Made by a program: the position numbers and the translations under genes
The notes under the pieces: model-generated
Database searches by the model: none
What the model saw: only the letters and a program-made list of their open reading frames with translations
Told to the model about the DNA's origin: nothing
IMG/VR virus record: IMGVR_UViG_3300027844_002282
DNA: 64,000 nucleotides
DNA from: a virus
Reading direction: 5' to 3' (one strand)
Shown: in pieces, positions 361 to 38,303 of the stretch
Layout: each line of letters begins with the position of its first letter
How positions within the stretch are numbered: position 1 is the first letter of the stretch

Positions 361-840
361 ATGCAATGGGACTCAGTATACATGCCAAACTCAGCTTATC
401 CCCCGCACGTTGGACATGCGGCAATGATCTTACACGCAAGAGCGAGCTTTCTCTACACAAAATTTTATTTAGAATCTTATAACACGCCTGGAATCGATCT
501 TAGATGGGGGGTCGTTCATGATGTTCGCTCAACACCAGAGTTTGAAAAAATGCAGGTTGATCTTATGAATTGGATGGGATACCCACCGGAATTTGAATTG
601 CGACTAAATGAATATGGGAATTTTCAAGCCGACGTGATGTGCATGTTGTTAAAGATGGAAATTCGAGAGGCCGATTTCAAAAGCCTTGAAATTGGGAAGT
701 TTATGGTTCTAAACTCAGTAAGAACTCACATAAGGGGGGTGGGACCTTGTTCCGTTAGAAAAAGTAGAGAGGCCATTGGCGGGCGCTTTTGGATTCGGCT
801 ACCCAACAATAAGATACGCCCCATTATTATTAGACAATAA
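361..840 (+). CDS. hypothetical protein
   Basis: 159-aa ATG ORF, no recognisable motif. Confidence 0.55.
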   Translation: MQWDSVYMPNSAYPPHVGHAAMILHARASFLYTKFYLESYNTPGIDLRWGVVHDVRSTPEFEKMQVDLMNWMGYPPEFELRLNEYGNFQADVMCMLLKMEIREADFKSLEIGKFMVLNSVRTHIRGVGPCSVRKSREAIGGRFWIRLPNNKIRPIIIRQ

Positions 841-1168
841 TGGCGAAAAGATATGCTCTAGTAAAAGCGAGCATAAAAAGTTTCAACTAACTCAAGTAAC
901 TATGGATTCAAATGGGCCAGACAGTCTGATTGAAAAGCTATTAAAATGCCACTGCCCTGACGCGGAACATGTGAGAGGCGAAGACCCTGACGAAATAGCG
1001 ATCAGATGGTGTAGAAAACTATGGACGCATTACCATGGATTAGCTTGTCTTGGACAGCCAATGACGCCAATAAAATTTAACTTATAAAATGCCGATGAAA
1101 CATTTATATGGATGATGTCCTGTCTTGTAAGCAGGTTAACTCGGATCGTTACCGAGCTTCGGCTCCAA

Positions 1169-1660
1169 TTACGTCTTCAAACCGCCAGGAGCGTTTTGTT
1201 GATCAAAGTATTGAGTGACAGCACCCTGGTCAAAGTACCCCAGTTCCCCAAGATACTTCTCAACATCCAGGGAAGGGGCGAATACGCTTTTGAAATAAGT
1301 GCGTAGTTTTGGAATCACCTCACTTGGCATAAAGAGCCCGCTTCTGTTCATATCAACAATGTGTATTTGAACCTGTTTGGTCCCTCTCGGATACAACGCT
1401 TCCCCTGCGTATGGGATAAGCCACATCTGAAGATACCCCAGACGAACATTCGTAGGGGCGAAAACCTGGATTTCAACAAGACTCCTGTCAGATCTATTTT
1501 CGACCCTTGATTTCACCTCAAGACCAAAAAACTCTTGAACTATATTAACAGCCCCGGCCTCTGCGGCCTGAACGTCTGCATCGTCCAAAGCCAATTTCTT
1601 GTCCAAAACAGATCTTACTTTCTGTTGAAGGGCATCATTATCGTCTGCATAAATTCTCAT
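1169..1660 (-). CDS. hypothetical protein
   Basis: 163-aa ORF preceded by an AGG-N19-GTA motif (1701-1725, minus strand). Confidence 0.65.
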   Translation of the reverse strand: MRIYADDNDALQQKVRSVLDKKLALDDADVQAAEAGAVNIVQEFFGLEVKSRVENRSDRSLVEIQVFAPTNVRLGYLQMWLIPYAGEALYPRGTKQVQIHIVDMNRSGLFMPSEVIPKLRTYFKSVFAPSLDVEKYLGELGYFDQGAVTQYFDQQNAPGGLKT

Positions 1661-2113: not shown

Positions 2114-2193
2114 GGACGCATAGCTTAGTCTGGCTAAAGCGCTTGTATGACACATGCAAGAGATCGTTGGTTCGAATCCAACTGTGTTCACCA
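2114..2193 (+). tRNA. tRNA-Val(GAC)-like with a 9-nt anticodon loop
   Basis: acceptor GGACGCA/TGTGTTC, D-arm GCTT..AAGC, stem CTTGT/GCAAG around ATGACACAT, T-arm GTTGG-TTCGAAT-CCAAC, encoded CCA. Confidence 0.75.
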
Positions 2194-4403: not shown

Positions 4404-4813
4404 ATATAGTCCAAATATGATCCTCTCACCAATCTTGTTTATCAAAGATTATTTTGAAGGAATCGCATACGGACCTCCGAGAAAGTATAAAGCGAACATG
4501 AAATTAGTTTGTAATGACATCTATAGTTTAATAGGGGCCAGAGCATTTTCAATTTTATAGAACAGGTAAAAAGAACAAACAGCAGGTATAGGTATGAATA
4601 TCGAAAAAAATTTTTATATAACGATGTCCAATTCGGCGTAGAGGTCTTAGTACCAAGTTACCATACCATAGATAAAAACGCCATAAATAACGCGATAATA
4701 AAACTTGTAATGACTGGAGTGAAAAACATCAGTGTTGTAAAGTCTGGAGGCCAGGTCGGAATCATGGGATCAGAAAAAGAAATAACACCATGGTCTATAT
4801 TTGGGGGAAGGGA

Positions 4814-5326
4814 ATGAAAAAGAGTTCATTAATCCTGTTTATACTAATGACCATGGAGGCATTCTCATTTGAACCAAGGATGCAGGCCGAAGTCAGAACA
4901 TACACTCCAGAGCACCTGGTTCCAAAAAAAGCAACAATTGAGCTTCTCGATGGCACTAAGATAATCGGAACTATAGAAGACAAAGATGGGAAATACATTA
5001 TCAAATCCGAATCTGCCGGTGAAATAATCATAGAAAAAGACGAGGCGAAAATTATTGAATATAAGGAACGGGTTGTAAAGAAGAAAAGCGAGGGGAAAAA
5101 AACAATCAGTGATCTACAACAAATGATGCTTTCAGACCCAGACTTGATCAATGAAATCATTCTTAGGTTCGCCACTGATAAAGATTTTCTTGATGTTATA
5201 TCAGACCCAGAAGTAATAAAACATATCCAAGATTTTAATCTATTGGAGCTTCTTACAAATCCGAAAATACAGGCTCTTACCGAAAAGGAAAGCATTAAAG
5301 ATTTTACCAAAAAAGTCACTGAATAA
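4814..5326 (+). CDS. putative exported protein
   Basis: MKKSSLILFILMTMEAFS resembles a signal peptide. Confidence 0.6.
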   Translation: MKKSSLILFILMTMEAFSFEPRMQAEVRTYTPEHLVPKKATIELLDGTKIIGTIEDKDGKYIIKSESAGEIIIEKDEAKIIEYKERVVKKKSEGKKTISDLQQMMLSDPDLINEIILRFATDKDFLDVISDPEVIKHIQDFNLLELLTNPKIQALTEKESIKDFTKKVTE

Positions 5327-5328
5327 TT

Positions 5329-5721
5329 ATGGTCGAAGATGAAAAAGAATTACAAGGAATGATTGGACCTAACGGCGGGCCAGATATCCTATTTATAAGA
5401 AAATCTGAGACTCTTGATAGCATAGTCACAGAATACGAGTGGCCAAACGGATCTTCTTTCAGACTGGGATTCTCAGAACAGGGAGTCCGTGGGGATATTT
5501 ATTGCGCGGACAGAAGTGGCGGTGTTAAAATGGGAATAGTAGACGACTCAGGAGGGTTTACTGTCCCAACATACTATTGTCATAAAATAAATATGCCAGT
5601 AATAATTAACGAATTGGCTATGCGTAGCTGTCGTAATATTTACATACTTAGAAAGGGCTCAGAACTTGGCGTGTTTGGCGGAAACATAGAACTTGATCTT
5701 TCTAAACCAGACAGGGGCTAA
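5329..5721 (+). CDS. hypothetical protein
   Basis: 130-aa ORF tightly coupled to the upstream gene. Confidence 0.55.
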   Translation: MVEDEKELQGMIGPNGGPDILFIRKSETLDSIVTEYEWPNGSSFRLGFSEQGVRGDIYCADRSGGVKMGIVDDSGGFTVPTYYCHKINMPVIINELAMRSCRNIYILRKGSELGVFGGNIELDLSKPDRG

Positions 5722-5727
5722 AGACTA

Positions 5728-5925
5728 ATGCTAAGTAGAGAGTTCCTGTTAGATTTAGAAAAATGTTGTGGCAGCGGATGCTTTAACTGCCCATATGACC
5801 CAAGGCACACGAGAGGGTCAGAAAAAATTTCAAAAGACGCCCCTGTAGTTCAATCGGAAGAACAGTTGCCTTCGAAGCAATCGCGTCCGGGTTCGAATCC
5901 TGGCAGGGGTACCAATAACGATTAA
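5728..5925 (+). CDS. small Cys-rich protein (DUF5522-like)
   Basis: CCGSGCFNCPY motif; the ORF as read runs through the tRNA at 5839, so the true end is probably earlier. Confidence 0.55.
   Translation: MLSREFLLDLEKCCGSGCFNCPYDPRHTRGSEKISKDAPVVQSEEQLPSKQSRPGSNPGRGTNND
5839..5914 (+). tRNA. tRNA-Arg(UCG)
   Basis: GCCCCTG/CAGGGGT acceptor, GTTGC-CTTCGAA-GCAAT, CCGGG-TTCGAAT-CCTGG, CCA. Confidence 0.9.
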
Positions 5926-6034
5926 TCTGGATTAGGGAGCCAGTTGAATGCCAACTTCCCAAGGACGGGCGTTGAGGAATCCTCAATAGCTCTTACGAGA
6001 GCGAATCCTTGTTAAAAACACGTCGCCATTTTAC

Positions 6035-6299
6035 GTCGATGTAGGCGAGAGGAATAGCCATCGTAAACACGGAAATGAAGTCCCTAACGGGAGTATGAGA
6101 AGATATATCTCGGTAATATAGCTGCGTTGTGGCGTTCCCGGTATACGTCTTTTGGTATAAAGGTTGTAAATGAGCTTCTAAGGCGACCTGGAAAAGCGAA
6201 GAGTGGAACCAGGTGGGTATAAGTAACCTGCCTTATTGATGCCCGTGACCTAACAGTACCGTTCATACCACGTCGATTCAAGTCCGACCATCGACACCA
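6035..6299 (+). ncRNA. tRNA-shaped RNA with a 211-nt insert replacing the anticodon/variable arms
   Basis: perfect acceptor GTCGATG/CATCGAC plus A-CCA, D-arm GGC-GAGAGGAATA-GCC, T-arm GTCGA-TTCAAGT-CCGAC; 6061-6271 lies between them. Confidence 0.75.
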
Positions 6300-6329
6300 A
6301 TTATGTAGAACCAAAAACGTAGAGAATTT

Positions 6330-6416
6330 GCATCGGTGACCGAATTGGCTGAAGGTATCAGACTTTTAATCTGAAGAGCTAAGGCTCCACTGGGGGTTCG
6401 AATCCCTCCCGATGTA
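6330..6416 (+). tRNA. tRNA-Lys(UUU) with long variable arm, no encoded CCA
   Basis: GCATCGG/CCGATGT acceptor, TCAGA-CTTTTAA-TCTGA, variable hairpin GAGC-TAAG-GCTC, GGGGG-TTCGAAT-CCCTC. Confidence 0.85.
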
Positions 6417-6501
6417 AATGTGAAACCATAACCAATAAAGAACAACTAATAGATAACAATAAATAGAATAACATAATCATAACTCAAAAAAAGGGGGGCG
6501 C

Positions 6502-6900
6502 ATGAGTTGGTGGAAATTTTGGTCTAAGACCAAAAATTATAGGGTGTCGGGAGCGGAAGTGATTGAAGAAAAATGGCCAAGTGACAGGCTAATAATTATA
6601 AGAAAAAACAAGGGCGAATCAGTGATCTATTTGAAAGACACTAAGACCCCAGTAATAGCAAGAAACGATGATAATGATTACATTTTAATACCAAAATTTG
6701 AAGTGGGTAAACCATATCTAAAACTGAAAGATCTCGCATACAAAATAGCAAAATTCGGAATCTATACACACATACACATTTTCAACATAGACGGGAGTAC
6801 GGTAGCGGTGGTGGGAACCGTTAGAAAAATCGGGTTAGCTAAGGAGTTTTATAGCATAAGAGATAGCTCAAGCGCACATAATATTAACAAATATGTATAA
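6502..6900 (+). CDS. hypothetical protein
   Basis: 132-aa ORF with a G-rich RBS. Confidence 0.6.
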   Translation: MSWWKFWSKTKNYRVSGAEVIEEKWPSDRLIIIRKNKGESVIYLKDTKTPVIARNDDNDYILIPKFEVGKPYLKLKDLAYKIAKFGIYTHIHIFNIDGSTVAVVGTVRKIGLAKEFYSIRDSSSAHNINKYV

Positions 6901-6968: not shown

Positions 6969-7496
6969 ATGAAGCTCCCGGTGTTATTAGTATTTTCAGC
7001 GTTCTTATCTGGATGTGCAACTTTACCAGTGGGGAAACAGTCTGCACCACCAATATACACCTGTGAAACAATGCTCCCACCACTTCTTGAGGATTTTTAC
7101 AGAATTTATCGAGAACCATACGTGGAAAACTTGTACGATTGTTCAAATAAATCTGCAAAATACACCCTCAAGTTGAGAGAAAATGGATTTGAGGCAAACA
7201 CGATCCTTATTGAACAAGTCGGCTATGTTGTTGGCGACTTTATACACGCGGTTGTTATTATAAAGATAGGGGACGATTGTGAGTTTTTCTGTGATATTAC
7301 AAATGGGACTTGGACTACCGATTTACCCACACTCGGAATTCCTTTAGCCTACGTCAACAGTATAGACTTGTTGACGAATTATGAATATGTTAACAATTTG
7401 CATTTGATCCCGTTTTTGGGAGAAGTGATAAAAGTGAGAGCTAATGGGGTCTTATACATAGACATAGCCGTTCCCGTTGTACTTGCACCAAAGTAG
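6969..7496 (+). CDS. putative lipoprotein with a transglutaminase/papain-like Cys-His-Asp arrangement
   Basis: lipobox FLSG-C; YDCSNKS ... IHAVV ... CDIT; GAGGTG RBS and TTGACT promoter-like element upstream. Confidence 0.55.
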   Translation: MKLPVLLVFSAFLSGCATLPVGKQSAPPIYTCETMLPPLLEDFYRIYREPYVENLYDCSNKSAKYTLKLRENGFEANTILIEQVGYVVGDFIHAVVIIKIGDDCEFFCDITNGTWTTDLPTLGIPLAYVNSIDLLTNYEYVNNLHLIPFLGEVIKVRANGVLYIDIAVPVVLAPK

Positions 7497-9507: not shown

Positions 9508-9703
9508 TCTTTTAGGCCGACTCGTCGCTGGTTAAACCAGAGGAAAGTCAGGACTACACTTCTTAAGGTAGGACGGAAAACCGGATAGCACTACCGAGGT
9601 AGCAACGCAAACAGGCTGAGTGTGTGAGAAGCACTGTGAAGCCGGGTAGCGGCAAAGATTAATGACGAGGTTGAAACAAAATCCTGCTTACGAGCCTAAA
9701 AGA
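9508..9703 (+). ncRNA. rnpB: minimal RNase P RNA
   Basis: P1 TCTTTTAGGC/GCCTAAAAGA, P2 CTCGTC/GACGAG, P3 CTGG/CCAG, conserved GAGGAAAGTCAGG and AACAAAATCCTGCTTA strands forming P4. Confidence 0.85.
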
Positions 9704-9721
9704 TTAATTATTGGTTAAAAA

Positions 9722-15188: not shown

Positions 15189-15349
15189 GTATCTCAGTTT
15201 GAAAATAGAATAGTTTGTGGTTTCCAGTTTCCGTAAAAACTGGTGGTGGAGGGTATAGCGATTCAAACCGTTTTTGCCCCTGGCTACAAGGAGTCGTTTT
15301 ATTGGGTTAAGCACCTTGTCAATGCTAACCCAGATTTTCCACATTTTGT

Positions 15350-16054
15350 GGGGACGTAACAGGTATTCGACTAGAATGGTAGAATATCAATTGCATGTCG
15401 AGGATGACTGTTGGCCTCGTTAAACATCAGTTAAAAAACATAAAAGCGAACAACGAAGAAATCCTTCAGTTCCCTGGTCTTGATGCAGGTTTTGCAGCAC
15501 CAGTAGAGGCTCCGGCCTTTGCAATCGCTGCCTAATTAGTTGACAGACTAACTCGGCCTTAATTGAGCCGAGCGCTTAACGGATGGACCCTTGATAAATC
15601 CGTAAGCGACAAAAATCGAGGAAAGCGCTTGATACTGACTCACCTGAGTTGAGAGTGAAAGTTTTAGGTGATCGTCATACTGCCAGTTGGTGTTAATACC
15701 TGCGAATGTAATACGGCACAGACTAAAAGATAGCAAAATTAACTATACATGTAGACGTTGATATAAAGTTGTTTTAGGACGCGGGTTCGATCAAATTGGT
15801 CGCCATGAGAAGTGATTCTCATTGGAAACTGAGAGCTTTCACGGTGAAAGCTAAGTTGAGTAATCAATATGCCAACGCCGTATGGTGAATCTGAAAAGAG
15901 GAAGCCATCTAGAGACTTATAGAGTCCTAAGGTATTTATACTATGGATCACTAGGATGGGTAAAACCATAACACGCTCTCCCCTGACTTGTCAGGTGAAG
16001 AAATAGTCCTTGCCAGGTGAAAGTCTGGGTGTACAAGCCCCGCCGTCTCCACCA
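15350..16054 (+). ncRNA. ssrA: tmRNA, intron-containing (exons 15350-15791 and 16038-16054)
   Basis: GGGGACG/CGTCTCC-A-CCA acceptor with G3:U70, GGTATTCGAC, tag ORF 15446-15535 (ANNEEILQFPGLDAGFAAPVEAPAFAIAA*); spliced T-arm GCGGG-TTCGATC-CCCGC. Confidence 0.93.
15792..16037 (+). mobile_element. group I intron in the tmRNA T-loop (246 nt, no ORF)
   Basis: 5' exon ends in U pairing with G in P1 (CGAUC/GGUCG); terminal G; P3 GAGAGC/GCTCTC; core elements AGAGACTTAT (15911) and GAAGAAATAGTCC (15997); P8 CCTGAC..TCAGG. Confidence 0.9.
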
Positions 16055-33593: not shown

Positions 33594-34274
33594 ATGAATT
33601 GGTATAAAAAAGCAACAAGAGACCGAAACTCTAAAATACTATATTATGTGGGACCTGGCCCTGCACAGCCAAACCCACCAAAACATGGTGGATGGAGTAG
33701 ACGAGATAAGGAGTACGGAAAACAAGAGAAGGTATTCTTCTTAACCCCAGACTATTGCACCGTATGGACAAACCATGGAAGAAGGGGAAACGTTTACATA
33801 TATGAAGTCCCCAATTGGGTTATAAAGGAAAGTGGAGGCGTTCAACGATATGATAATGCTGCCGAAGTTATAATTCCAGCGTCTCTTTTTGTAGAGGTAA
33901 AAATGATTGGGAGTATTGATGAGCAAAAGGTCAATGACAAATGCCGACACAGATTGAATAACTACGTAAAAAGGATGGATCTATTTGATAAAAGCGAGCC
34001 AGAAGAAAAAGTAGATGTTGGGTCATTTGTACATTGGATGAATGCATCTGAAAAGGGGATGCCAAAAGAAACCATATTTAAAGTTGACAATATAAAAGGA
34101 GGAATGATTGAAATATCAGTCGTTGGGGCGCTTCAGTTCTCTTATAGATATGATGACAATGGAAGAATGATGAGGAAATGGAACATACAGAAAGGCGAAG
34201 GGAAATACACCTCTAAGCAACAATCAGTATACCCTATAAGCAAAAAAACCCAGTCTCAACTGGCGGAAGTATAG
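33594..34274 (+). CDS. WYK-leader protein, possible ADP-ribosyltransferase-like N-domain
   Basis: MNWYKKA leader; LYYVG ... VFFLT ... GNVYIYEV ... AEVII pattern. Confidence 0.6.
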   Translation: MNWYKKATRDRNSKILYYVGPGPAQPNPPKHGGWSRRDKEYGKQEKVFFLTPDYCTVWTNHGRRGNVYIYEVPNWVIKESGGVQRYDNAAEVIIPASLFVEVKMIGSIDEQKVNDKCRHRLNNYVKRMDLFDKSEPEEKVDVGSFVHWMNASEKGMPKETIFKVDNIKGGMIEISVVGALQFSYRYDDNGRMMRKWNIQKGEGKYTSKQQSVYPISKKTQSQLAEV

Positions 34275-36704: not shown

Positions 36705-38303
36705 TTACACTTGTGAGCTAACAAGTGACTGCACAACTTCCTGGAATCTCGGATCTGCCTCTAAGGCTGATCGTACATTCGCTTTCGTGACTTCAAGATC
36801 TTCATCGATCAAAGACGGATTATCAAGAATAATGTCTTCCTGAACTTCTTTGATGATTCCAATATGACGCCCCGGCTTGATATCAGGAACTCTGGCTCTC
36901 AACATATTCATGATCTCATGCCCATCAATAATGTCCTTCCCCTTTTCAGGGAGCTTCTCCATCATTAACTCAGGCATCCTGTTCTTTATCAACGCACTAT
37001 TGTTCTTCAGCTCACCTTCTGCGGGAATTGAAGAGACTTCATCCGCGACGAGAAGAGCAAGAACGTCATCAAAAGCATCGTCCATATCTCTGTAATAGCG
37101 TCTAAAGGCCTTGTCACCCCATTCTCCGGCGCTGTGTCCTCTCATATGATTATCAACAAGCTTAACAGTTTTATCGACAACGTCATTGGGATACTTCAAA
37201 GCCTTCATTCTCTCTTTAATCATATCTCCAGAATGCTTCTCGTGCTTGTAGAAATGGATTCTATCATCGACCCTCTCTTGAGTGACTGCCTTCCCCCAAT
37301 CGTGAGAGATAGCCGCCCAAGTAAGATGGATTCCAGCATCGGGGTTCTCATTTTCCAAAGCCTCAATAACTTTCAAGGTATGGACGTATGCATCCCCTTC
37401 ACTGTGATGGACAGTATCCTGTTCAACTCCAATCAAAGCATGCATCTCAGGGAGAATGGGCTCAAGGAGATCAAGCTCTTCCATCAACGGAATAGCTTCA
37501 TGCATCTTACCGTACCCAGCAATTTTGTCAATTTCACCACGAAATCTTTCTGCTGAAGTATTGGAGAGATTGTGAATATTATTCCTGATCGCCTCTTTCA
37601 CTTCGTCAGTCATAGTCCATCCATGCTTAACAGCAAATCTGACACCCCTAAGCATTCTAAGAGCATCGTCCTCAAAGATCGGATTGGGATCGCTCGGAGT
37701 CCTGATAATTCCATCTTCAATATCCTTCAAGCCCATTCCGGTCAAATCCACAATGTCGCCATTAGATATTTTTTCTGCAAGAACATCGGGGGAAATAACA
37801 GGTCCAGCCTCCATCTTCTTCAAAAGAGAGTTAACAGTAAAATCCCGTCTCATAACATCATCTTGAAGAGTCCCAAAGGCAACCTCCGGTTTACGACTTC
37901 CGGTCCTGTACTGCTCCTTTCTGGTTTGAACGGCTTCGATCTCAATGCCATCGACATTGTATGTCTGTCCTTTGTATATCAAATCTTTCAATATGACAGC
38001 GTAAACACCGTATCCCTTATCAATAGGGGGCTTCAAGCCAAGAATCGATGTGACGTAATCGCCAAACACCAAGCCACCATCGGGATATTCGATTACAGCA
38101 TCGATATCCTTGGGGATAATTCCAAGCATCTCATCTCTGACAGTTCCGCCAACGATGTAAGACTTTCCTTTGAGAACATGCCCATTGGGAATGTTCTTTG
38201 CCACTTCCGACAAAAGAATCTGCGCCTGAACAAAAGGGGCGTCGGAATTATCCGCATCAGCAGTCAAGTATTTTTCTAAATAAGTTTTTTTGTACCAGTC
38301 CAT
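36705..38303 (-). CDS. cca: CCA-adding tRNA nucleotidyltransferase (class II) with an HD domain and WYK leader
   Basis: VGGTVRD, KDID, RRDFTVN, DDALRMLRGVRF, HHSEGDAYVHT and HDWGK. Confidence 0.9.
   Translation of the reverse strand: MDWYKKTYLEKYLTADADNSDAPFVQAQILLSEVAKNIPNGHVLKGKSYIVGGTVRDEMLGIIPKDIDAVIEYPDGGLVFGDYVTSILGLKPPIDKGYGVYAVILKDLIYKGQTYNVDGIEIEAVQTRKEQYRTGSRKPEVAFGTLQDDVMRRDFTVNSLLKKMEAGPVISPDVLAEKISNGDIVDLTGMGLKDIEDGIIRTPSDPNPIFEDDALRMLRGVRFAVKHGWTMTDEVKEAIRNNIHNLSNTSAERFRGEIDKIAGYGKMHEAIPLMEELDLLEPILPEMHALIGVEQDTVHHSEGDAYVHTLKVIEALENENPDAGIHLTWAAISHDWGKAVTQERVDDRIHFYKHEKHSGDMIKERMKALKYPNDVVDKTVKLVDNHMRGHSAGEWGDKAFRRYYRDMDDAFDDVLALLVADEVSSIPAEGELKNNSALIKNRMPELMMEKLPEKGKDIIDGHEIMNMLRARVPDIKPGRHIGIIKEVQEDIILDNPSLIDEDLEVTKANVRSALEADPRFQEVVQSLVSSQV

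What the first reader, a model, noticed from the sequence alone, without database searches (positions are those of the whole stretch)
6035..6299. 265-nt tRNA-shaped RNA whose anticodon arm is replaced by a 211-nt structured domain
Seen: a perfect 7-bp acceptor stem (GTCGATG/CATCGAC), discriminator A and encoded CCA, U8-A9, a D-arm with GG in the loop and a TTCAAGT T-loop. Between D and T lie 211 nt with long-range complementarities (CACGG 6068/CCGTG 6243; GTATGA 6093/TCATAC 6263, alternatively TCGTA 6061; GTTCC/GGAAC; AGGTTG/CGACCT; CAGGT/ACCTG; TCCC/GGGA). I see no group I core like the one in the tmRNA intron, no splice that restores a normal anticodon arm, no G3:U70 and no tag ending in Ala-Ala. 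Inference: a possibly undescribed tRNA-elbow ncRNA class, matured by RNase P/CCA like tmRNA but with a different payload (decoy, ribosome or synthetase ligand, or an unusual intron).
Basis: partly seen in the sequence, partly recalled or inferred. Interest (0 to 1): 0.88.

Follow-up and report, generated by a model that had tools for sequence, protein, structure and literature searches.

The report
Giant tRNA-like RNA gene in phage
A phage tRNA gene cluster holds a 265-base gene with the ends and elbow of a tRNA but 212 unexplained bases where the anticodon arm should be; it is not a known intron or RNA family, and with no relatives its function cannot yet be shown.

Summary
The tRNA-like frame at 6035-6299 is real: a 7-bp acceptor stem, U8-A9, a D arm with GG, a TTCAAGT T loop, discriminator A and an encoded CCA. 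It lies on the same strand as its two tRNA neighbours. A frame of this kind is expected 0.025 times per shuffled window.

The folding z-score is -1.1, and known RNAs of the same phage score no better, so that test has no power.

No Rfam family matches at E<=10. Two group I controls do match: the intron in this phage's own tmRNA (22.9 bits) and a 205-nt tRNA-Leu intron in huge phage LR756501 (56.6 bits). No single excision restores a good tRNA. The best, Val(AAC), passes ARAGORN at 105% only. Shuffled inserts do as well, and true interrupted phage tRNAs reach 118%.

So it is probably neither an intron-bearing tRNA nor a tmRNA. My best reading (about 0.45) is an anticodon-less, CCA-ended tRNA-like stable RNA made from the tRNA operon. 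A rearranged dead tRNA gene remains a serious rival.

No homologue turned up; the only other copies, four contigs of the same phage, are identical. Other first-stage readers flagged this same stretch; none saw it on other DNA.

The parts
6035..6041 (+). 5' strand of the acceptor stem (GTCGATG)
   Evidence: 7/7 Watson-Crick pairs with 6289-6295. It forms in the unconstrained minimum-energy fold.
6042..6059 (+). U8-A9 and the D arm (GGCG / AGAGGAAT / AGCC)
   Evidence: Read: A14 and G18-G19 are present, with 3 Watson-Crick pairs plus G13.A22. The ARAGORN drawing agrees.
6060..6271 (+). 212-nt insert where the anticodon and variable arms should be; non-coding and of unknown fold
   Evidence: No Rfam match at E<=10. 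No tag ORF. GC is 45.5% against 40.3% for the window and 29.8% for a true spacer. The constrained fold gives two 3-4 bp hairpins (6062-6071, 6081-6092) and a Y-shaped domain closed by GTATGA 6093-98 / TCATAC 6263-68, three nt before the T stem. Helix content is at chance level.
6272..6288 (+). T arm: GTCG(A) TTCAAGT (C)CGAC
   Evidence: Read: T54 T55 C56 A58, with an A53.C61 mismatch. The same sequence occurs in the tRNA-Met(CAT) at L010:1856-1931.
6289..6299 (+). 3' strand of the acceptor stem (CATCGAC), discriminator A and encoded CCA
   Evidence: Read. Most tRNAs of this island also encode CCA.
5839..5914 (+). Upstream neighbour: tRNA-Arg(TCG), same strand, 120 nt before the gene
   Evidence: ARAGORN; Rfam 64.2 bits.
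5915..6034 (+). 120-nt spacer or leader, GC 45%, of unknown nature
   Evidence: No Rfam match at E<=10. z-score about -1.2. GC.
6329..6417 (+). Downstream neighbour: tRNA-Lys(TTT) with a long variable arm, 30 nt after the CCA
   Evidence: ARAGORN; Rfam 58.2 bits.
9509..9706 (+). Phage-encoded minimal RNase P RNA (198 nt), a candidate 5'-end maturase for the island
   Evidence: Rfam RF00010, 63.9 bits, E 2.9e-19. P1-P4 and the conserved CR-I and CR-V regions align; most of the specificity domain is absent.
36705..38303 (-). Phage CCA-adding enzyme (PolyA_pol head + RNA-binding + HD domains)
   Evidence: Pfam PF01743, PF12627 and PF01966.

Best explanation
The gene makes a 265-nt, tRNA-derived but non-decoding stable RNA.

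It is transcribed with the co-oriented tRNA genes around it. RNase P cuts before G6035; this could be the host enzyme or the phage's own minimal RNase P RNA at 9509-9706. The RNA ends at its encoded ACCA, which the phage CCA-adding enzyme can repair.

Only the 'top half' of a tRNA is kept: the acceptor/T-arm minihelix, the D arm, and the G18G19/T-loop elbow. The anticodon and variable region is replaced by 212 nt. These most likely form a branched domain seated next to the T arm, in the position of a class II variable arm.

The tRNA half would act as the handle that tRNA-processing enzymes recognise, and possibly an anticodon-independent synthetase or the ribosome as well. The insert would be the payload.

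Shown: the anatomy, the context, the lack of an anticodon arm, and the absence of any known intron, ribozyme or tmRNA signature.

Inferred: transcription, processing, stability, the fold of the insert and any function.
For: - The frame is non-random: the only hit in the window, against 0.025 per shuffled window.
- It sits in phase in a same-strand tRNA operon, 120 nt after tRNA-Arg and 30 nt before tRNA-Lys.
- It ends in ACCA, as most tRNAs of this island do.
- The canonical U8, A14, G18G19, T54-T55-C56 and A58 are all intact.
- The T arm is identical to that of a real phage tRNA-Met.
- The tRNA-like frame costs only 0.3 kcal/mol relative to the unconstrained minimum-energy fold.
- The acceptor, D and T parts are flawless, yet no excision gives a good anticodon arm. 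That is the pattern expected if only the top half is under selection.
- Insert GC is 45.5%, like the phage's tmRNA (44%) and its intron (43%), and unlike the AT-rich spacer at 30%.
- The phage encodes an RNase P RNA and a CCA-adding enzyme.
- Five independent assemblies (the window and L001-L004) carry the identical sequence, so it is not a misassembly.
Against: - There is no homologue anywhere, so no covariation and no evidence of conservation. The other four copies compared come from one 99.9%-identical population and are uninformative.
- The insert has no excess of helices. Its z-score of -1.1 falls within the range of coding controls, +0.8 to -1.3.
- Competing local hairpins exist at both ends.
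- Other huge-phage tRNA islands examined hold no comparable gene.
Confidence: 0.45

Rival explanations
1. It is a dead or rearranged tRNA gene. Foreign or scrambled DNA replaced the anticodon arm recently. The intact acceptor, D and T parts and the CCA are simply inherited and are not under selection; the transcript, if made, has no function.
For: - No conservation can be shown beyond one population.
- The insert's helix content and folding energy are at chance level.
- The island holds other odd tRNA-like genes, for example a 142-nt 'double' tRNA at L001:1850-1991. This suggests frequent rearrangement.
- The repeated TCGA motifs could be rearrangement scars.
Against: - All tRNA top-half features are perfect, while the anticodon arm is wholly absent rather than merely interrupted.
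- Insert GC is that of the phage's structured RNAs, not of its spacers.
- The gene keeps operon spacing and the CCA.
- No terminal repeats or target duplication of a mobile element were seen on reading the sequence.
Confidence: 0.27
2. It is an intron-bearing tRNA. A divergent group I intron or an unknown kind of intron is excised to give a decoding tRNA. ARAGORN's solution is Val(AAC) after removal of 6066-6249. The U(-1)/omega-G-compatible variant would give an 8-nt anticodon loop.
For: - The insert size of 184-212 nt is that of minimal tRNA group I introns.
- A huge phage has exactly such a gene: LR756501 tRNA-Leu(UAA) with a 205-nt group I intron.
- This phage's own tmRNA carries a group I intron.
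- ARAGORN in intron mode gives tRNA-Val(AAC) with loop CTAACAG (U33, A37).
- The phage has another tRNA with an expanded 9-nt anticodon loop.
Against: - No RF00028 signal at E<=10. The same kind of search gives 56.6 bits for the LR756501 intron and 22.9 bits for the tmRNA intron.
- By inspection there is no P7/P3 pseudoknot, and no GACU partner for the single AGUCC.
- No U(-1)/omega-G pair gives a 7-nt anticodon loop.
- The best excision has a C.C mismatch and a 10-nt variable loop, and passes ARAGORN at 105% only. Of 60 shuffled inserts, 60 give a typed tRNA at 100% and 50 at 105%. Three true interrupted tRNAs reach 118%.
- RtcB or a splicing endonuclease was not found among the 26 ORFs scanned. 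That scan was not exhaustive.
Confidence: 0.1
3. It is a second, degenerate tmRNA-like ribosome-rescue RNA.
For: - It has a tRNA-like domain plus a large internal domain, and is of tmRNA-like size.
- The phage already invests in trans-translation, with a tmRNA at 15349-16053.
Against: - C3:G70, not G3:U70.
- It has a real D stem.
- No tag ORF ending in a hydrophobic tail and a stop codon.
- ARAGORN tmRNA mode finds nothing, and Rfam tmRNA models give nothing at E<=10.
Confidence: 0.03

Closest known systems
tmRNA (SsrA; Rfam RF00023)
   Same: The 5' and 3' ends form an acceptor/T-arm tRNA-like domain with CCA. A domain of about 200-300 nt replaces the anticodon arm. It is encoded in phage tRNA regions, and this phage has one 9 kb downstream.
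   Different: No G3:U70, no tag reading frame and no recognisable pseudoknots. It keeps a paired D stem. There is no model match.
tRNA genes interrupted by small group I introns (cyanobacterial tRNA-Leu(UAA), Azoarcus tRNA-Ile; here LR756501 tRNA-Leu(UAA), L043:7244-7534)
   Same: A tRNA frame of 265-290 nt with about 200 nt between the D and T arms, lying in a huge-phage tRNA island.
   Different: No group I core by RF00028, although both positive controls are detected. The exons do not rebuild a good tRNA.
T4 RNAC and RNAD
   Same: Phage-encoded small RNAs whose function is still unknown (PMC9697503). From my own knowledge, they lie in the T4 tRNA gene region and are processed together with the tRNAs.
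   Different: They are much shorter, about 120-140 nt from my knowledge. Whether they share the elbow architecture was not tested.
Class II tRNAs and phage tRNAs with long variable arms (for example tRNA-Lys 6329-6417 of this phage)
   Same: In the minimum-energy model the large domain is closed by a 6-bp stem three nt before the T stem, which is the place of a class II variable arm.
   Different: The arm would be about 170 nt instead of 10-25 nt. No 5-bp, 7-nt-loop anticodon arm precedes it.
Small non-group-I insertions in LR756501 tRNA-Met and tRNA-Arg (L042:7819-7958, L044:7096-7214)
   Same: An insertion begins right after the first three nucleotides of the anticodon stem. The 8-mer CGTAAACA at this junction is shared with the LR756501 tRNA-Met.
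   Different: Those insertions are 45-68 nt long and homologous to each other. Their removal restores perfect tRNAs, passing ARAGORN at 118%. The similarity to the giant RNA is not significant: 39% of shuffles score as well.

Membership tests
tRNA (RF00005) | Acceptor stem, D arm, T arm and discriminator (+CCA) | tested here: met
   Read; scanner. The T stem has an A53.C61 mismatch, also seen in a real tRNA-Met.
tRNA (RF00005) | Anticodon arm (5-bp stem, 7-nt loop with U33 and R37) and an overall length of about 70-95 nt | tested here: not met
   It is 265 nt long. Default ARAGORN and Rfam tRNA miss it. No arm lies between 6060 and 6092 on reading the sequence.
tRNA interrupted by a group I intron | Group I catalytic core (P3-P9) detectable by RF00028 | tested here: not met
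   No hit at E<=10. Controls score 56.6 bits and 22.9 bits.
tRNA interrupted by a group I intron | U(-1) and omega-G splice sites whose ligation gives a canonical tRNA | tested here: not met
   Of 6375 excisions the best is Val(AAC) at 105% with a C.C mismatch, and it is not bounded by U and G. The U/G-compatible excision gives an 8-nt loop. The shuffle control is as good. True cases reach 118%.
tmRNA (RF00023) | G3:U70 alanine identity pair | tested here: not met
   The pair is C6037:G6293.
tmRNA (RF00023) | Internal tag reading frame ending in a stop codon, flanked by pseudoknots | tested here: not met
   The three-frame translation shows no tag-like frame. ARAGORN -m and the Rfam models are negative.
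Self-cleaving ribozymes (HDV-like/theta, hammerhead, twister and others in Rfam 15) | Match to a family covariance model | tested here: not met
   Nothing at E<=10 in 5905-6330. A theta-like ribozyme elsewhere in the same phage is detected at 33.8 bits.
Class II (long-variable-arm) tRNA | A stem-loop between the anticodon arm and the T arm, ending 1-3 nt before the T stem | tested here: inconclusive
   In the minimum-energy model GTATGA/TCATAC closes 3 nt before the T stem, with mean pair probability 0.65. Alternative folds lie within 4-5 kcal/mol. There is no covariation.
RNase P substrate / CCA-ended stable RNA | Precise 5' cleavage at G6035 and a 3' CCA-OH end in vivo | not testable with these tools
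   No read data were available.
T4 RNAC/RNAD-type RNAs | Sequence or structure similarity to T4 RNAC/RNAD | not tested
   blastn against all phage records, T4 included, found nothing. No structural comparison was made.

The most novel reading that the evidence does not exclude
This is the first member of an undescribed kind of phage RNA. It would be an anticodon-less 'tRNA top half' (acceptor/T minihelix, D arm, elbow and encoded CCA) carrying a ~210-nt branched payload. It would be matured by the phage's own tRNA-processing machinery: the minimal RNase P RNA and the CCA-adding enzyme. It would use tRNA mimicry to reach a synthetase, the ribosome or a host tRNA-targeting defence. That makes it a tmRNA-sized RNA with no messenger part.
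Probability: 0.3. Interest if true: 0.8.

Novelty: new variant of a known kind. Interest (0 to 1): 0.5.

Why it matters
Very few RNAs keep the tRNA acceptor/T-arm/elbow module while replacing the anticodon arm; tmRNA is the classic case. Each known example has revealed how cells or viruses exploit the tRNA-handling machinery.

This phage invests unusually in RNA-based tRNA biology. It has more than 20 tRNAs, a tmRNA with an intron, a theta-like ribozyme, a 198-nt RNase P RNA and a CCA-adding enzyme. A new CCA-ended tRNA mimic there could be a decoy, a scaffold or an acyl carrier.

If it is instead a wrecked tRNA gene, it is a useful warning. A perfect tRNA frame alone does not prove function.

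The controls built here give a reusable way to tell intron-bearing tRNAs from such frames: excision scans with shuffles, and true phage intron-tRNAs as positives.

Tried and rejected
Search for homologues, all empty or uninformative:
- blastn and megablast against 50,697 phage records.
- Exact and degenerate patterns for the T arm, D arm and 3' end in IMG/VR, in metagenome contigs (the only hit is an unrelated tRNA-Met with the same T arm) and in GTDB genomes (two chance hits in coding DNA).
- Neighbouring ORFs as synteny anchors. ORFs 5329-5721 and 4790-5326 have no relatives except the same phage. ORF 6502-6900 and the PRPP synthetase have none in IMG/VR. Distant relatives of ORF 6969-7496 lie in unrelated contexts.
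- Contigs carrying the identical cytidylyltransferase are all the same phage, at 99.9% identity with the RNA 100% identical.
- nhmmer and blastn of the RNA against the rest of the window, the upstream island and all fetched phage loci found no paralogue.
- The frame scanner run on four IMG/VR phages rich in tRNAs (G001-G004) and on the LR756501 tRNA islands found no comparable gene.

Other attempts:
- tmRNA reading: rejected.
- A mobile element with terminal repeats or a target duplication: only the 5-bp CACGG/CCGTG and an 8-mer repeat ACGTCGAT that does not delimit a sensible pre-insertion tRNA. Rejected on reading the sequence.
- The insert as a trans-acting RNase P specificity domain: no local RF00010 match.
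- Bulge-helix-bulge motif at ARAGORN's junctions: absent on reading the sequence.
- Thermodynamic z-scores: no discriminating power.
- Relation to the small LR756501 tRNA insertions: not significant.

Full report
**What is there.** Positions 6035-6299 (+) read as a tRNA frame:
- GTCGATG (6035-41) pairs perfectly with CATCGAC (6289-95).
- These are followed by A6296 and CCA.
- T6042-A6043 are U8-A9.
- 6044-6059 is a D arm: GGC/GCC plus G13.A22, with loop AGAGGAAT holding A14 and G18G19.
- 6272-6288 is a T arm with loop TTCAAGT.

- The T stem has four pairs and an A53.C61 mismatch.
- The repeated TCGA cores allow two competing local hairpins, 6037-41/6059-63 and 6272-77/6290-95.

A 19-nt stretch holding the T arm and its mismatch recurs in a normal tRNA-Met(CAT) of an unrelated phage-like contig (L010). 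It is therefore a natural T-arm variant.

**Is the frame chance?** I wrote a scanner that asks for a 7-bp acceptor, an adjacent T arm, U8, a D arm with GG and a CCA end, at total lengths of 100-600 nt. It returns this locus as the only full hit on either strand of the window. Forty locally shuffled windows gave 0.025 such hits each.

The gene lies in a same-strand tRNA operon. It starts 120 nt after tRNA-Arg(TCG) and ends 30 nt before tRNA-Lys(TTT). Like most tRNAs of the island, it encodes CCA.

The same sequence, base for base, is present in four other assemblies from JGI and ENA (L001-L004). The phage occurs in at least 24 contigs of up to 153 kb. It is therefore not a misassembly. These copies are 99.9% identical overall, so they say nothing about constraint.

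**The insert.** The 212 nt at 6060-6271 are non-coding: every frame has many stops and there is no tmRNA-like tag.

| Helix length | Observed | Shuffles |
|---|---|---|
| 5 bp or more | 26 | 19.8 +/- 5.4 (p 0.14) |
| 6 bp or more | 4 | 4.9 |
| 7 bp or more | 0 | 1.3 |

The minimum-energy z-score is -1.1. That test has no power here:

| Sequence | z-score |
|---|---|
| This RNA | -1.1 |
| The phage's RNase P RNA | -1.17 |
| Its tRNAs | -1.2 to -1.6 |
| The tmRNA intron | -2.7 |
| Four coding controls | +0.8 to -1.3 |

Insert GC is 45.5%. That matches the tmRNA (44%) and its intron (43%). The window average is 40.3%, and the true spacer after tRNA-Lys is 29.8%.

With the tRNA frame imposed, the fold loses only 0.3 kcal/mol. 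It shows two small hairpins (6062-71, 6081-92) and a Y-shaped domain closed by GTATGA/TCATAC three nt before the T stem. Folds that instead use CACGG/CCGTG lie within 4-5 kcal/mol. None of these folds can be validated.

**Known families.** Rfam 15 gives no match at all at E<=10 for 5905-6330. ARAGORN's tRNA and tmRNA modes are negative at default settings.

Two positive controls show that the negative result for group I introns means something:
- The T-loop intron of this phage's own tmRNA scores 22.9 bits with RF00028.
- A 290-nt tRNA-Leu(UAA) frame that my scanner found in the 735-kb phage LR756501 carries a 205-nt intron scoring 56.6 bits, E 7.7e-14.

By inspection I found no P3/P7 pseudoknot, and no GACU partner for the single AGUCC.

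**Does any excision give a tRNA?** ARAGORN in intron mode, at a lowered threshold, proposes tRNA-Val(AAC) after removal of 6066-6249. That solution has a C.C mismatch in the anticodon stem and a 10-nt variable loop.

I tested all 6375 single excisions. This is the best one, and it passes at 105% of the default threshold but not at 110%. Splice sites compatible with U(-1) and omega-G give an 8-nt loop.

Two controls settle the point:
- With the insert shuffled, 60 of 60 sequences give a typed tRNA at 100% and 50 of 60 at 105%. The Val solution is therefore worth nothing as evidence.
- Under the same scan, three truly interrupted tRNAs of LR756501 (Met, Arg, Leu) still give solutions at 118%.

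The exons of the giant RNA therefore do not rebuild a proper tRNA. The anticodon arm is missing, not merely interrupted.

**Context.** The phage carries tRNA-handling functions:
- A 198-nt RNase P RNA (RF00010, 63.9 bits, E 2.9e-19) lacking most of the specificity domain.
- A CCA-adding enzyme.
- A tmRNA.
- A theta/HDV-like ribozyme after a tRNA in the upstream part of the island.

RtcB or a splicing endonuclease did not appear among the 26 ORFs I scanned.

**Relatives.** None were found. The searches were:
- blastn against phage records.
- Seven IMG/VR pattern scans, one metagenome scan and one GTDB scan.
- Neighbour proteins as synteny anchors.
- The frame scanner on four tRNA-rich IMG/VR phages and on the LR756501 tRNA islands.

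Other first-stage readers flagged this same stretch in overlapping windows (e1-5791291, e1-5791296). None reported it on other DNA.

**Reading.** The pattern is a flawless acceptor, D arm, T arm, elbow and CCA, with no anticodon arm recoverable by any excision. It fits best a tRNA-derived RNA in which only the top half is kept. Such an RNA would be a CCA-ended tRNA mimic carrying a payload, made and processed with the tRNAs (confidence 0.45).

The main rival is a rearranged, functionless tRNA gene (0.27). An intron-bearing tRNA is now unlikely (0.10), and a tmRNA-like RNA is nearly excluded (0.03).

Function is open. Because the anticodon is absent, any charging would have to come from an anticodon-independent synthetase. 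The discriminator is A73 and the large arm sits in the class II position, so LeuRS is the first candidate to test. That is inference only.

**Novelty.** It resembles tmRNA in layout and the T4 RNAC/RNAD RNAs in being a phage RNA of unknown function (PMC9697503), but it belongs to neither family. With one sequence and no covariation or expression data, I rate it a new variant of a known kind (tRNA-derived phage RNAs), with interest 0.5. I put the chance that it founds a new RNA class at 0.3.

Noticed in passing
window 9509-9706 (+); also L024:483-672 (-), L021:112-539 (+), L025 about 1193-1620 (-): There is a 198-nt RNase P RNA (RF00010, 63.9 bits, E 2.9e-19) with most of the specificity domain missing. 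The CR-I variant GAGGAAAGTCAGGACT also occurs inside the tRNA islands of three IMG/VR phage contigs. One of these sits in a gap of only 190 nt and reads by eye as another minimal RNase P RNA; it was not checked with a model. Phage-encoded mini RNase P RNAs may therefore be a recurrent feature.
   Followed up: partly
LR756501.1: L042:7819-7958 (-), L044:7096-7214 (-): tRNA-Met(CAT) and tRNA-Arg(TCT) of the 735-kb phage carry homologous insertions of 68 and 45 nt. Each has the hairpin GTAATTTG...CAAATTAC followed by CACAGCAA.ACAAA. They sit inside the 5' strand of the anticodon stem, between positions 29 and 30 (ACG|...|GC). Removal restores perfect tRNAs. They do not look like group I introns (not checked against Rfam), and I know of no description of them.
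   Followed up: partly
LR756501.1: L043:7244-7534 (-): tRNA-Leu(UAA) is interrupted by a 205-nt group I intron (RF00028, 56.6 bits). The huge-phage paper (PMC7162821) does not mention introns.
   Followed up: yes
L001:1850-1991 (+), same phage, about 2.7 kb upstream of the window start: A 142-nt tRNA-like gene has one acceptor stem (GATAATG/CATTATC) and one D arm, but two T arms and two anticodon-like hairpins with the same loop CTGTAATAG. It looks like a 'double' tRNA.
   Followed up: no
L001:2368-2437 (+), same phage, upstream of the window: An HDV-like (theta-type) ribozyme match (RF02682, 33.8 bits, E 0.0033) starts directly after a CCA-less tRNA(CAT) at 2297-2366.
   Followed up: no
window 15349-16053 (+): The tmRNA has a long tag (ANNEEILQ...AFAIAA). 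Its T loop is interrupted by an ORF-less intron of about 246 nt with a weak group I match (RF00028, 22.9 bits) and U(-1)/omega-G boundaries.
   Followed up: partly
window 2114-2193 (+): A tRNA that ARAGORN calls Cys(ACA) has a 9-nt anticodon loop ATGACACAT between CTTGT and GCAAG. It could be an expanded-loop or frameshifting tRNA.
   Followed up: no
window 6329-6417 (+); L009:2653-2839: tRNA-Lys(TTT) has a class II-type long variable arm. An IMG/VR phage (UViG_3300015608_002795, 48 tRNAs in 47 kb) has two such Lys tRNAs, one of them 82.6% identical.
   Followed up: partly
window 5915-6034 (+): The 120-nt spacer between tRNA-Arg and the giant RNA has GC 45%, against 30% for the true spacer at 6418-6501. 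It matches no Rfam family at E<=10. It could be a leader or a separate element.
   Followed up: partly
G001 (IMGVR_UViG_3300015608_002795) 33860-33990 (+): This is a 129-nt tRNA-like frame (TGTATTA/TAATACA with good D and T arms). ARAGORN reads it as tRNA-Trp(CCA) with a 35-nt insertion.
   Followed up: no
window 361-1087 (+): Another reader called this region a GluRS-like paralogue. Its two ORF pieces (361-840, 776-1087) gave no Pfam family at E<=0.001.
   Followed up: partly
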